A stretch of 64,000 nucleotides of DNA from Lachnospiraceae bacterium (GTDB lineage: Bacteria > Bacillota > Clostridia > Lachnospirales > Lachnospiraceae): assembly GCA_017540265.1 (NCBI GenBank), contig JAFYBJ010000008.1:8109-72108 (forward strand), in the 5' to 3' direction. Positions 16,783-27,248 of this stretch are shown here, one piece after another (position 1 is the stretch's first letter; each line of letters opens with the position of its first letter). A program made the position numbers and the translations under genes. The notes beneath the pieces were generated by a model that did no database searches, was not told where the DNA came from, and saw only the letters and a program-made list of their open reading frames with translations.

Positions 16783-16853
16783 AGCGGGTGAGGGGAATCG
16801 GACCCCCGTATTCAGCTTGGAAGGCTGACATTCTACCATTGAACTACACCCGC
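16783..16853 (-). tRNA. tRNA-Gly(TCC)
   Basis: GCGGGTG acceptor stem; anticodon arm TCAGC-CTTCCAA-GCTGA; T-loop reads TCCGATT; CCA not encoded. Confidence 0.93.
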
Positions 16854-16911: not shown

Positions 16912-16985
16912 TCGAGGTGACAGGATTCGAACCTGCGGCCTCCTGGTCCCAAACCAGGCGCCCCACCAAACTGGGCCACACCTCG
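16912..16985 (-). tRNA. tRNA-Pro(TGG)
   Basis: CGAGGTG acceptor stem; anticodon arm CCTGG-TTTGGGA-CCAGG; GGTTCGAATCC T-arm. Confidence 0.95.
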
Positions 16986-23479: not shown

Positions 23480-23488
23480 AGAATAAAA

Positions 23489-23664
23489 ATACCGGATGTC
23501 CGAACCCCTCTCTTTGACTCCTAGTTTGGCTAGGTGGGTGACCGCAGCGCTGACATCTGCCTTCCCGAATATTCATCCGGGCATGACATCCGACAGGCAA
23601 TATAGGAATCCCGTTTAAAGTACTGTAGGCTCAAAAACAAGGGGCCTTAAATTGACATCCGGTA
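23489..23664 (-). ncRNA. ssrS: 6S RNA
   Basis: ~175-nt intergenic rod closed by ACCGGATGTC/GACATCCGGT, with internal stems and a central bubble (TTTAAACGGGATTCC ... CACCCACCT); strong promoter immediately upstream. Confidence 0.88.
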
Positions 23665-23669
23665 TATAT

Positions 23670-23701: not shown

Positions 23702-24313
23702 TCACTCATGCTGCATCATGTTGATCGCATCGGTAAGCTTTGCAAGTGTGGCTGAGATGCTCTTGCTTGTGGCGCTCATATTTACCGCAAGTCCCTGCAC
23801 TTCTTCAGCCACCACAGAGAAGCCTCTTCCGTGTTCACCGGCTCTGGCAGCCTCTATGGACGCATTCAGGGCAAGTATCTTCTGCTTATTGCAGAAAGAA
23901 CTGATCTGACTTATATCCTTATTCGCCTGGACAATAAGACCTGCCGCATCCTCGGCGCCTTTGCTTATATCTTCCATCGTATGACTGCTCTTGTCCTGCT
24001 CATATGACAGATTTATAAACAGCATCAGCATATCTTTAAGAAGACTTCCTGCCGCAGTTTTATTAATTCCGTCATTTACATCCGTTCCGGAAACAGCGCC
24101 GCCTGTAAGTCTCCCGGCAACACTTCCGTCAGGCATAACCAGCTGAAGATCAAAATCCTTCACCCTGGATGAATCATTCTTTGACATACCGCATACAGCT
24201 ATGTTCTCACCATCTTTATCAGTCACGGCAGCAGCAAGACCGGTGGTCTTTGCCCATGAATTCATGTATGTTTCAAGCTGCTTAATATCACAGAAATCTT
24301 TGATACTGCCCAT
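23702..24313 (-). CDS. small soluble chemoreceptor-like protein (PocR-like sensor + MCP signalling tip)
   Basis: [27 protein letters not shown]; N-terminal W[16 protein letters not shown] resembles PocR; no TM helix. Confidence 0.85.
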
Positions 24314-24332: not shown

Positions 24333-26006
24333 TCAGATTCCCATAAGTTTCTCTTTGTAATTATCATACTCTTCCTGGGAAATGATGCCGGCCTCGCTTA
24401 TGTTCTTGAGCATATTAGCCTTGACCTTGAATTCATCCATATCCTTGTAAGGAGCAAATATATCGCGTATAACTTCCTGTTTCTTTGTCTCGAACTCCTC
24501 ATCAGTTGAAAGCTTGCAATCCCTTGCCACCATAAGAAGCTTCATGCGCTTTACAACATCACCTATCTCGATGACACTCTTTAATATTTCAAGCTTCTTG
24601 CCGTGGAAATCCATATCGGAGAGCCATGTCTTATCCCTTAACATAACCACGCGCTCGATCTTTGCCTGAAGTGCGGCCTCACTGTCTGCAGGAAGCCCCA
24701 TTACCTGTGCTATGAATGTGGACTGCTTCTGCTTGTATTCCTCGGTCGATGCTGCACCTGCAGCAACCATTGCCGGCCATCTTGAAAGCTTCATTTCAAG
24801 AATTTCAAGCTCATCCGAAATGGAGGGATCAAGTATGCTCTTAAGCTCTGCGATATCTGAATCATACTCGGACTTCTCTAACATTTCCGCATCTATGAGT
24901 ATGGGCAGCTTCTGGAGCTTTAACTGGAAAGTCTCATTGCTGTCCATGGGATCGTAAGTAACGCTGTCAAGAAGCGTACGCTTTCCGGATTCGAATTCTG
25001 CCGGGCTTACGATACCGCTTATCTGGATGATGGGAAGCTTTGCCGCATTTTCCTTAAATACGGCAAGGTCTCTTACATTGGGATCAAATGCCTCACCCAC
25101 AAGCTTGTTCCTGTCTGTCTCATATTCGGCATCACTTGTAACTCCTGCCTCGTGAGCAGAGATAACACGGCTGATCTTGCTGTAATAATCTGCCATGCCT
25201 CTTTCCTCGCAGATAAGCTTTAAGGTCTTATCCTTATACTCAGCTTCATCTATCATGCCGGACTCATGGAGTATCTCAAGCTTCTGTCTCTTTGCAGCGT
25301 AATCCTCGGGCTTCTGCTTTGCCTGTATCGTTCCTCTTGCTGCTGCGGAATTAAGCGCAGCTGCCGCAGCTGTTCTCGAAGGAGTATATGCAGGTACGGG
25401 AGGAACTGCAGGTGCTGCCGCTGCTGCAGGATCTGCTGCTGCCTGAGCGGGAGCAGGTGCAGGTGCAGGTGCAGGCGCTGCTGCCGCAGGTCTCGGAGCG
25501 GGCGCAGGTGCAGGTGCTGCAGGCTTTGCTGTTGCTGCCGGCTTGGGTGCGGGCGCAGGTGCGCCTCCTGCTGCCGGCTTGGGTGCAGGAGCGGGAGTTC
25601 CCGATGCAGGCTTTGCTGCTGCAGCCTGTGCGTCATTGCTCATTCCGCCCGCTGCCTTGGAAACTTCCATAAGCCTGTCTATAGCCTTGTTCATATCCTT
25701 AAGTCCGGGAAGTATGGTCTGGGTCTTCTTTGCCCCGTAAAGAGTCTGAAGCTTTGTTATGAGAATGAGGGCATCAGCTCCCTGAAATTCACCCTTCTTT
25801 ACGTCCCTGATATCCTTTGCGGGATAATCGTACTGGGAAACGTACTCATTCTTACCGTCTTCATTGCAGATATAACCCTTACCGCTGACCTTTACGCCAT
25901 CCGGCTTTGTGTCATCGATCTGCAGAAAAAGCTTTTCCTGGCTCTTTGCCGAAAGAAAGCTTTTAAGTGAACTTCCCCAGTTACATTGATAAACTTCTAC
26001 TGCCAT
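24333..26006 (-). CDS. hypothetical protein: globular N-domain, Pro/Ala linker, 8 tandem SHOCT-like repeats
   Basis: Repeats of L-x4-G-[IM]-[IV]-[ST]-x-x-E-[YF]-x3-K-x2-L with 38-43 aa spacing; AGGAGG SD. Confidence 0.8.
   Translation of the reverse strand: MAVEVYQCNWGSSLKSFLSAKSQEKLFLQIDDTKPDGVKVSGKGYICNEDGKNEYVSQYDYPAKDIRDVKKGEFQGADALILITKLQTLYGAKKTQTILPGLKDMNKAIDRLMEVSKAAGGMSNDAQAAAAKPASGTPAPAPKPAAGGAPAPAPKPAATAKPAAPAPAPAPRPAAAAPAPAPAPAPAQAAADPAAAAAPAVPPVPAYTPSRTAAAAALNSAAARGTIQAKQKPEDYAAKRQKLEILHESGMIDEAEYKDKTLKLICEERGMADYYSKISRVISAHEAGVTSDAEYETDRNKLVGEAFDPNVRDLAVFKENAAKLPIIQISGIVSPAEFESGKRTLLDSVTYDPMDSNETFQLKLQKLPILIDAEMLEKSEYDSDIAELKSILDPSISDELEILEMKLSRWPAMVAAGAASTEEYKQKQSTFIAQVMGLPADSEAALQAKIERVVMLRDKTWLSDMDFHGKKLEILKSVIEIGDVVKRMKLLMVARDCKLSTDEEFETKKQEVIRDIFAPYKDMDEFKVKANMLKNISEAGIISQEEYDNYKEKLMGI
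25330..25630 (-). repeat. low-complexity Pro/Ala-coding repeat
   Basis: (GCAGGT)n runs and a duplicated GCTGCCGGCTTGGGTGC, encoding (AP)n and APKPAA. Confidence 0.8.
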
Positions 26007-26201
26007 GCTTAAAACCCTCCTGTTATTGATCCTTTAATGCTGTTATCCGTATCCGTCAAACGCCTCCGGATACCCTCACCATGAACTATATCAGCGTGTC
26101 CTTAAAATTTCAAACCGCGAAACGCCCATAAATCAAGGCTTTACGGATTTGATGTCATATTTTTTTATTTTTATGAGGAAAATAAGGGGGATTTTTTTTA
26201 A

Positions 26202-27248
26202 TCACATCAATATTGTATTATCGATAACAGTCCTGAAAGAAGATATCTTTTGTTTTCCTCCCGGCACTCTGATCTCTGCAAGCCCCATTTTTGTTATATC
26301 TAAGGCCTCGGCACCCGGGCAGTTAAGCGACAGTGCAGTCTTTAGTTCTTCAAGCAATATCTTTTCACTTTCGGAGTCATCCATATTTACAAGGTCTATG
26401 ATTATCATTCCCGAAAGACTTCTTGCGGATATATGATAAGCAGCCTCCCATACGGCCTCTGTATTGAGTTTAAGGATAGTATCCCTCCCCCCTTTTTCAA
26501 AAGAAGCGCTGTTTACATCTATTACATTTAAAGCCTCGGTTTCATCAAAGACCAGTTCCCCTCCGCACTTAAGCTTTACGCGTCTCGAGAGCAGGTTGCC
26601 CGTTTTTTTTCTTAAATCAAAAAGTGTGACAAGCGAAATATCCTCATCCTCATAAAGCCTTATCTTTTCCTGGATCTGTCCCTTCCCGGCCTCTGCCCCC
26701 TTCATTACTTCAATTGCATCTTCATACAATCCCTTATCATCCGTATAAAAGCAGGCACCTTCCGTGGCAATAACCCTTTTAAGACATTGTTCAAAAATTC
26801 CCGCCGCCCTATGCAAAAGGCATGGAGCTGTTTTATGCTCATATTCTTCTGCCGGGATATCCGCAGCGATCACCTTTGCCTTCTTGCTGCCCTTGGGAAG
26901 CTGTCTTATCTTTACCGGAAAGATATCCCCCGGCCTTAATCTTCCGTCATATACCCTGTCTGCAAGCGGAAAATCCTTTCTGTCCGTATTTATAAAAACA
27001 CTGTCATCAAGTCCGGCATCAAGAAAAGCTGCCTGTATATCAGGAAGCGTATTCAGTACCCTTGCAAGATAAATATCCCCTACCGCGGCGCCCCTTGTAT
27101 CCTCGCAGTAAAGGTTCGTGATCTTTCCTTTATCAAGAACAAAAATGAGAGTCCTGCTCCCGTTTTTTTCACGGAAAGCAAGCACCCTCATGTTGCCTGT
27201 CTTCATCTCTGTTTTTTTATCTGTCCCGTTGTCTGCCGGTCTTATCAT
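26202..27248 (-). CDS. RNase E/G-family ribonuclease (shortened)
   Basis: S1 domain GDIYLARV...AAFLDAG; catalytic-region motifs TEALNVIDVNS and LSGMIIIDLVNM. Confidence 0.85.
   Translation of the reverse strand: MIRPADNGTDKKTEMKTGNMRVLAFREKNGSRTLIFVLDKGKITNLYCEDTRGAAVGDIYLARVLNTLPDIQAAFLDAGLDDSVFINTDRKDFPLADRVYDGRLRPGDIFPVKIRQLPKGSKKAKVIAADIPAEEYEHKTAPCLLHRAAGIFEQCLKRVIATEGACFYTDDKGLYEDAIEVMKGAEAGKGQIQEKIRLYEDEDISLVTLFDLRKKTGNLLSRRVKLKCGGELVFDETEALNVIDVNSASFEKGGRDTILKLNTEAVWEAAYHISARSLSGMIIIDLVNMDDSESEKILLEELKTALSLNCPGAEALDITKMGLAEIRVPGGKQKISSFRTVIDNTILM

What the first reader, a model, noticed from the sequence alone, without database searches (positions are those of the whole stretch)
24333..26006. 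Cytoplasmic protein with eight tandem SHOCT-like repeats
Seen: after a ~120-aa globular N-domain and a ~100-aa Pro/Ala tether, aa ~236-557 hold eight helical-hairpin repeats: KLEILHESGMIDEAEY, RVISAHEAGVTSDAEY, KLPIIQISGIVSPAEF, KLPILIDAEMLEKSEY, RWPAMVAAGAASTEEY, RVVMLRDKTWLSDMDF, LLMVARDCKLSTDEEF, MLKNISEAGIISQEEY. The E/D-[YF] cores are spaced 38, 43, 43, 43, 43, 38 and 42 aa apart. There is no signal peptide or TM helix. Known: SHOCT domains usually occur as one or two C-terminal copies and have been proposed to mediate oligomerisation or binding to SPFH-type partners. Inference: a single-chain SHOCT ring or solenoid carrying a tethered effector domain, possibly an undescribed scaffold.
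Basis: partly seen in the sequence, partly recalled or inferred. Interest (0 to 1): 0.75.

Follow-up and report, generated by a model that had tools for sequence, protein, structure and literature searches.

The report
PH adaptor with eight SHOCT repeats
A rumen bacterium encodes a conserved protein made of a predicted PH-fold domain, a long proline/alanine tether and a fixed block of eight SHOCT helical hairpins; it likely acts as an adaptor at the inner membrane and may serve a lone dynamin-like GTPase that tends to occur in the same genomes.

Summary
In detail: a 557-aa ORF (24333-26006, minus strand) with eight hairpin repeats at the stated spacings. All eight match a single-copy SHOCT profile, although Pfam detects only three in isolation. 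New here: the N-domain is predicted to have a PH fold (Z 8.6). The repeat block folds as one rigid, acidic unit (pTM 0.79) and has eight copies in every complete homologue examined. It is related to a one-SHOCT PH protein of related Lachnospiraceae. The gene is in 33 of 36 genomes of its genus, has its own sigma-70-type promoter, and has no neighbour conserved across lineages. PH+SHOCT proteins and an eight-SHOCT protein are already in print, so this is a new variant. The scan found this family before on other DNA, and one note proposed a dynamin-like partner. I tested that: close dynamin homologues occur in 3 of 350 Lachnospiraceae genomes, all among the 4 with the eight-repeat gene. But the carriers are kin, one complete carrier lacks any dynamin, and no specific co-evolution was seen. 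Best reading: a membrane-side adaptor, likely for that dynamin (40%). No binding has been shown.

The parts
24333..26006 (-). Gene for the 557-aa PH / Pro-Ala tether / 8xSHOCT protein
   Evidence: homologues
25650..26006 (-). N-terminal domain, residues 1-119, predicted PH fold (7 strands plus C-terminal helix); net charge +2
   Evidence: (Z 8.6, rmsd 3.7 A over 93 residues to Sin1 PH)
25935..25979 (-). Loop between strands 1 and 2 (residues 10-24): short, basic, moderately amphipathic segment with low pLDDT; candidate membrane-contact element (inferred, weak)
25308..25649 (-). Pro/Ala-rich tether, residues 120-233, predicted disordered; length varies among homologues
24336..25307 (-). Eight tandem SHOCT-like helical hairpins, residues 234-557, net charge -19. 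R1 25194-25307, R2 25077-25193, R3 24951-25073, R4 24822-24944, R5 24693-24815, R6 24564-24686, R7 24450-24563, R8 24336-24446
26085..26113 (-). Sigma-70-type promoter match (10 of 12, 17-nt spacer, extended TG) between the RNase E/G-family gene and this gene
   Evidence: same layout seen by eye in nearly all of 42 relatives' upstream regions
26015..26020 (-). Ribosome-binding site

Best explanation
The protein has a predicted PH-fold domain joined by a long flexible tether to a fixed, acidic block of eight SHOCT hairpins, and it likely works as an adaptor on the cytoplasmic face of the membrane, with the lone dynamin-like GTPase (DLP) encoded elsewhere in the genome as its most likely client. 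Shown by sequence and searches: the architecture, the invariant repeat number, homology of the PH domain to a one-SHOCT family of related Lachnospiraceae, and co-occurrence with one DLP lineage. Predicted: the PH fold and a rigid helical array that does not pack on the PH domain. Inferred: the array arose by amplifying one C-terminal SHOCT and would offer a multivalent protein-binding surface; the PH domain would dock at the membrane or on a membrane protein; the tether would let the two ends bridge tens of nanometres. The DLP (G000:C44:11240-13753) has no partner DLP beside it and no hydrophobic segment, so it would use this protein for recruitment in routine membrane remodelling or repair. 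Which end binds the DLP is not determined.
For: PH fold: 46 of the top 50 structural matches align to residues 1-130 and are PH/PTB/FERM-type domains by title or recall. Rigid array: pTM 0.79 alone against 0.50 for the whole protein. Eight repeats in 59 of 59 ORFs with PH and a complete repeat region among 69 found in 63 partly redundant loci, and in 52 of 59 stored PH+repeat proteins, the other 7 being 3 complete one-SHOCT proteins and 4 fragments. Array net charge -9 to -25 in all aligned homologues. SHOCT-like domains are predicted inner-leaflet anchors (PMC11237479) and bacterial PH proteins were found in membrane fractions (PMC2817789). DLP link: close homologues (59-90% identity) in 3 of 350 family genomes, all among the 4 of those 350 with the 8x gene. 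Both genes in 32 of 36 genus genomes, three of the four exceptions lying at contig ends or in missing regions. A gut lineage has a 58%-identical DLP three genes from its 8x gene. Its closest sampled relative G063 (98% complete) lacks both and has intact loci where the 8x gene sits elsewhere. None of the 7 one-SHOCT genomes matched the DLP (two also negative for Pfam Dynamin_N). The DLP's best 19-residue hydropathy is 1.14, inside the GTPase core; most bacterial DLPs come as gene pairs (PMC6104087).
Against: G196 (99% complete, about 10 contigs) has a full 8x protein and no Dynamin_N match. All other carriers fall in one TopA clade (support 98/97), so the overlap rests on few independent events. 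G016, the only genus member lacking both, also lacks the neighbours of both loci, so it is not a clean co-loss. Within the genus DLP distances track the RNase G control (r 0.74) better than the repeat block (0.65) or the PH domain (0.33). Only 1 of 220 fetched loci holds both genes; no longer, fused form was found (a weak test). Four genomes carry tandem 8x paralogues but one close DLP. The strand 1-2 loop is only moderately amphipathic (0.27-0.72), and PMC2817789 argues that bacterial PH domains bind proteins, not lipid.
Confidence: 0.4

Rival explanations
1. It is a stand-alone sub-membrane scaffold of the bacterial PH/SHOCT kind (envelope organisation or stress) with some other partner; it shares genomes with the DLP only because both were inherited in one clade.
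For: G196 has it without a DLP. Carriers are kin. No specific co-evolution. The one-SHOCT relatives exist without the DLP. An earlier scan note (e1-4295098) read an adjacent pair as a recent joining.
Against: Within the carrier clade all 15 sampled genomes or records testable for both genes agree, 6 with both and 9 with neither. Both genes group the gut lineage with G201/G251 rather than with this genus.
Confidence: 0.35
2. The PH-fold domain is a PTB-like reader of phosphorylated or unphosphorylated peptides in Ser/Thr kinase signalling, and the array gathers downstream proteins.
For: PTB domains are among the tied structural matches. In G196 the gene lies directly upstream of a Ser/Thr kinase and a metallophosphatase gene.
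Against: That neighbourhood was seen in one genome only. A shared fold shows no function.
Confidence: 0.07
3. It is a degradosome-like scaffold that supplies the RNase E/G-family enzyme encoded just upstream with the tether and membrane anchor it lacks.
For: The RNase E/G-family gene is directly upstream in 37 of 38 genome loci with enough upstream DNA and in G201 and G251.
Against: It has its own promoter. None of 21 metagenome loci, nor G196, has the RNase gene next to it. The site is the conserved rng-rplU junction, found without it in G063.
Confidence: 0.06
4. It scaffolds cytoplasmic chemoreceptor arrays together with the soluble PocR-MCP protein encoded 19 bp downstream.
For: Adjacent soluble chemoreceptor gene. 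One RNA-library contig spans both genes, which does not prove one transcript.
Against: The chemoreceptor follows the gene in only 5 of 43 genome loci and has no counterpart beside it in the other lineages.
Confidence: 0.04
5. It is an anti-phage or prophage-derived membrane guard.
For: Bacterial PH genes occur in phage lysogeny modules (PMC2817789). Single repeats weakly match PHROGs of unknown function. Distant relatives of the DLP sit beside a HerA-like ATPase in patchily distributed clusters.
Against: Near-core gene at a fixed locus. No PADLOC match. No relative in viral contigs. No GC anomaly.
Confidence: 0.05
6. The hairpin array binds DNA or RNA, as proposed for SHOCT by analogy to helix-hairpin-helix motifs.
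For: Hypothesis in PMC3581485.
Against: The array is acidic in every aligned homologue, -9 to -25. No nucleic-acid-binding fold stands out in the fold searches.
Confidence: 0.03

Closest known systems
SHOCT domain (Pfam PF09851; PMC3581485)
   Same: About 30-residue two-helix unit with conserved Gly and Glu; whole protein passes the Pfam cut-off; R8 is C-terminal.
   Different: Eight diverged copies (about 22% identity to each other) predicted to pack as one unit, fixed in number, instead of one terminal copy.
Bacterial PH + SHOCT proteins (PF03703/DUF304~SHOCT, 9 sequences in PMC3581485 Table S3) and PHb proteins (PF08000; PMC2817789)
   Same: Bacterial PH-fold domain followed by helical hairpin(s); PHb2 uses a C-terminal hairpin to build a 12-fold ring.
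   Different: No Pfam bPH match; no bacterial PH structure among the top 50 fold matches; a tether of about 110 aa; eight hairpins in one chain; ring formation unknown.
Naegleria gruberi D2VS68 (eight SHOCT repeats; PMC3581485)
   Same: Eight non-identical SHOCT copies in one chain.
   Different: Eukaryotic; I did not fetch it, so homology beyond the motif and the presence of a PH domain are untested.
One-SHOCT (CxxC)2-PH-tether-SHOCT proteins of related Lachnospiraceae (found here)
   Same: Homologous PH domain (97.5% probability, E 6e-12), Pro/Ala tether, SHOCT.
   Different: One SHOCT, an N-terminal pair of CxxC motifs, other loci; found in 7 of 401 family genomes, none of which has the 8x form or the close DLP.
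Bacterial dynamin-like systems (BDLP1, Cj-DLP1/2, DynA, LeoABC; PMC6104087 passages) and classical dynamin (PH and proline-rich domain in one chain; recalled)
   Same: The candidate client passes Pfam Dynamin_N and matches mitofusin and BDLP1 sequences weakly.
   Different: The DLP is unpaired and unlinked here; I found no paper on a PH- or SHOCT-domain partner of a bacterial DLP in my searches.

Membership tests
SHOCT domain (PF09851) | Whole-protein score above the Pfam gathering cut-off | tested here: met
   30.4 bits against 27; 18 of 18 close homologues match at E <= 1, best 2e-17
SHOCT domain (PF09851) | About 30 residues, two helices, conserved Gly and Glu, no indels in the unit | tested here: met
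   R6 has Trp/Asp in place of the usual Gly-x/Glu pattern and is the most diverged
SHOCT domain (PF09851) | Each of the eight repeats is itself SHOCT-like | tested here: met
   Profile-profile 84-97% to a Pfam-positive single SHOCT, with shuffle controls for the weakest three; by Pfam HMM alone only 3 of 8, below cut-off
SHOCT domain (PF09851) | Function (unknown; oligomerisation not supported in the founding paper; membrane anchoring predicted) | not testable with these tools
PH superfold | Seven-strand sandwich capped by a C-terminal helix | tested here: met
   Predicted model only: (best Z 8.6, a middling value, but 46 of 50 rows agree)
Pfam bacterial PH families (PF08000, PF03703 and related) | HMM match | tested here: not met
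   No bPH family at E <= 1 or E <= 0.05 in 10 distant homologues and 8 one-SHOCT relatives; Atlas leads to PH-type clusters all below 0.9
PHb ring-forming proteins (PMC2817789) | Homo-oligomeric ring of PH domains | tested here: inconclusive
   No usable result; see Tried and rejected
Paired bacterial DLP operons | Two DLP genes side by side, with accessory genes in the operon | tested here: not met
   One strong Dynamin_N hit in G000 (73% complete), no second DLP beside it in G000, G002, G006, G201, G251; the 8x gene is on another contig
DLP adaptor (proposed) | Physical interaction with the DLP | not tested
   Only co-occurrence and distance correlation were examined
Named anti-phage systems (PADLOC) | Match to a system protein model | tested here: not met
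   None for P0001; the DLP has only a weak LeoA match

The most novel reading that the evidence does not exclude
A 'split dynamin': a lone bacterial dynamin-like GTPase without a hydrophobic membrane segment is recruited by a separate protein that supplies a PH domain and a proline-rich tether in trans, with eight SHOCT hairpins as a multivalent docking rail. This would be the first PH-domain adaptor of a bacterial dynamin and the first assigned binding partner for SHOCT repeats.
Probability: 0.3. Interest if true: 0.82.

Novelty: new variant of a known kind. Interest (0 to 1): 0.5.

Why it matters
SHOCT is a widespread domain with no known function and no match among solved sequences. A soluble, predicted well-folded eight-copy array, beside a natural one-copy relative, is a practical handle for solving a SHOCT structure and finding what it binds. 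If the DLP is the partner, it links a PH domain to a bacterial dynamin, a pairing I know only from eukaryotes (recalled). If not, it remains an unnamed lineage-specific scaffold of abundant rumen and gut bacteria.

Tried and rejected
Complex prediction of four PH-domain copies: no answer, score 0.01, own fold uncertain; no evidence either way. Fold searches of the repeat block: no match at E <= 0.001 in PDB or BFVD, best Z 8.3 at rmsd 13.5 A; this does not show a new fold. PDB sequence search: nothing for the repeat alignment; only low-complexity tether hits for the mixed alignment. NCBIfam hits to P0001 are tether artefacts. Weak genome hits in 3 of 24 other families overlap the tether, and the weak G139 hit showed no matching ORF; both dropped. 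Class-wide search: no match in 299 other genomes at E <= 1e-8, one genome unscored. Longer or fused forms: none among 2807 candidates, weak evidence. Shorter PH-only hits look like fragments (not checked one by one). EF-hand reading of the G-x-I-S-x-x-E-F motif: a recalled pattern matched once, in a linker, not at the repeat cores; rejected. Genome-wide SHOCT family search of G000 found nothing, not even this gene, so it is too insensitive to use. Within-genus distance correlation gave no specific DLP signal. The RNase G and DUF2344 genes had no contig cover in 3 of 4 RNA runs; not used to rank expression. The hypergeometric value of 6e-7 ignores kinship and is not used. My notebook called the distant DLP clusters 'two DLPs'; for the one locus tested the large neighbour is a HerA-like ATPase. 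Whether other gut metagenome records hold the DLP stayed open.

Full report
Observation. The ORF is at 24333-26006 on the minus strand, 557 aa, among his, pheST and rpsB-tsf housekeeping genes with no composition anomaly. The eight motifs and their spacings are exactly as reported, and there is no hydrophobic segment. Pfam SHOCT passes for the whole protein but sees only R1, R7 and R8 in isolation, below cut-off. Leave-one-out profiles from 18 close homologues support six repeats strongly, R5 marginally and R6 not. Profiles from 14 diverse homologues match all eight to a Pfam-positive single SHOCT, and the three weakest beat shuffled and reversed controls.

Anatomy. AlphaFold2 with 18 sequences gives a seven-strand domain with a C-terminal helix, a disordered tether and a helical C-terminal block; pTM 0.50 fits two bodies that do not pack. 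Of the top 50 structural matches, 46 align to the N-domain and are PH, PTB or FERM-type domains by title or recall; best Z 8.6, rmsd 3.7 A over 93 residues. The repeat block alone, with 42 sequences, reaches pLDDT 93.4 and pTM 0.79 and has no close structural match. I had no coordinates, so ring versus rod is open. The block is acidic (-9 to -25) and nearly free of indels, while the tether runs from 67 to 230 aa. Repeats are about 22% identical to each other but 52-72% identical position by position among close homologues, so each repeat keeps its own identity.

Family. The gene is in 33 of 36 genomes of the genus. Record titles name Lachnospiraceae for 42 of 43 loci. Full-length forms occur in 5 of 401 family genomes sampled about one per genus, this one included, and in gut metagenome contigs (21 loci); none was found in 299 other genomes of the class or in viral contigs. 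Eight repeats were found in 59 of 59 complete ORFs (partly redundant loci) and in 52 of 59 stored PH+repeat proteins; the rest are 3 one-SHOCT proteins and 4 fragments. A one-SHOCT family with a homologous PH domain (97.5%, E 6e-12; shuffles at most 17 against 67; this gene is its best hit in G000) occurs in 7 of 401 family genomes. In the 45 genus genomes its profile finds only ORFs of 503-603 aa, the 8x size. I infer amplification from a one-copy ancestor; no rooted test was made.

Context and expression. The gene has its own promoter match, seen by eye in nearly all of 42 relatives. In the genus it follows the RNase E/G gene (37 of 38 loci), often before rplU; in other lineages it lies before topA, before a NYN gene and polA, or before a kinase. 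No neighbour is shared by all lineages. Thirteen runs on record as RNA, from seven ruminant-gut or gut studies, hold the stretch; contigs of 4 of 4 laid runs cover much of the ORF. These runs were found with this stretch and may contain DNA, so this is weak support for transcription.

Literature. PMC3581485 (read parts 1-3 of 4, plus search rows of Table S3): SHOCT did not oligomerise a fusion protein; band-7~SHOCT 121 and DUF304~SHOCT 9 sequences; an eight-SHOCT protein in Naegleria. PMC11237479 (passages): SHOCT-like domains predicted to anchor domains to the inner leaflet; its supplements, not seen, may list further architectures. PMC2817789 (abstract, passages, section 17): bacterial PH rings, membrane-fraction evidence, protein rather than lipid binding predicted. 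PMC6104087 (passages): most bacterial DLPs are paired and bind lipid at the trunk tip. Other papers were seen only as search listings. Searches showed no paper on this architecture or on a PH/SHOCT partner of a bacterial DLP; the library lacks most subscription papers.

The dynamin lead. A sequence look-up of earlier scan notes found nothing; word look-ups returned two notes on this family in other genomes, one for and one against a pairing with a lone DLP. G000 has such a DLP, 838 aa, on another contig, 58% identical to a DLP three genes from the 8x gene in gut locus L128. In the same 350 family genomes, close DLPs occur in G002, G201 and G251, all 8x carriers; seven more genomes have only distant homologues and no 8x gene; the fourth carrier, G196, has none. 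In the genus 32 of 36 have both; G005 and G017 are explained by contig ends and G023 lacks the neighbouring gene too; G016 lacks both but also both neighbourhoods. On a TopA tree of 32 rows all PH-SHOCT carriers but G196 fall in one 16-row clade; within it 6 have both genes, 9 neither and 1 could not be tested for the DLP. G233, a one-SHOCT genome, was left out of the tree. Both genes place the gut lineage nearer G201/G251 than this genus. Against: kinship leaves few independent events, G196 is a clean exception, only 1 of 220 loci holds both genes, and distance correlations over 19 genus genomes show nothing specific.

Verdict. The feature is real and conserved. Its parts are known kinds; the fixed PH-tether-8xSHOCT layout has no family name that I could find, and the scan has met it before on other DNA. 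It most likely works as a membrane-side adaptor. I put the DLP as client at 0.40, a DLP-independent scaffold at 0.35, and the other readings at 0.25 together. No interaction or localisation has been shown. Interest 0.5.

Noticed in passing
window 23485-23668 (-): Probable 6S RNA: full-length Rfam RF00013 match, 40.4 bits (cut-off 46.4), E 6e-7, behind an 11-of-12 sigma-70 promoter match; missed at the gathering threshold.
   Followed up: partly
window 23702-24313 (-): Short soluble chemoreceptor-like protein: truncated PocR-like N-terminus plus MCP signalling domain; follows the gene in only 5 of 43 genome loci.
   Followed up: partly
window 26202-27248 (-): RNase E/G-family protein of only 348 aa, well below family cut-offs and fast-evolving in the genus (mean distance 1.05); possibly degenerate.
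   Followed up: partly
window about 26140-26160 (-) and relatives: A short AT-rich motif (ATATGA-like) recurs about 30-40 nt upstream of the -35 box in most relatives (seen by eye); transcription-factor site or antisense promoter unknown.
   Followed up: no
L031, L033, L037, L054 (genomes G009, G014, G024, G027): Tandem duplication of the whole 8x gene; both copies keep eight repeats.
   Followed up: partly
L072:5536-10235 (G196): Divergent 8x gene directly upstream of a Ser/Thr kinase (with DUF6273) and a metallophosphatase gene, in a genome with no Dynamin_N match.
   Followed up: partly
L101-L108: Undescribed one-SHOCT family with N-terminal CxxC pairs and the same PH domain; usually near an [FeFe]-hydrogenase-like gene (label recalled from sequence, not scanned) and gltX; several genomes have a second, shorter paralogue.
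   Followed up: partly
L177, L178, L183, L184, L186, L187: Distant relatives (24-36%) of the DLP lie in patchy clusters with a 1050-1220-aa protein, HerA-like in the one tested, often after a regulator-like gene; candidate defence or conflict module.
   Followed up: partly
P0091: Unrelated 433-aa protein with a signal-peptide-like start and three SHOCT-like repeats.
   Followed up: no
window 16783-16853 and 16912-16985 (-): Two tRNA genes upstream of rpsB-tsf.
   Followed up: no
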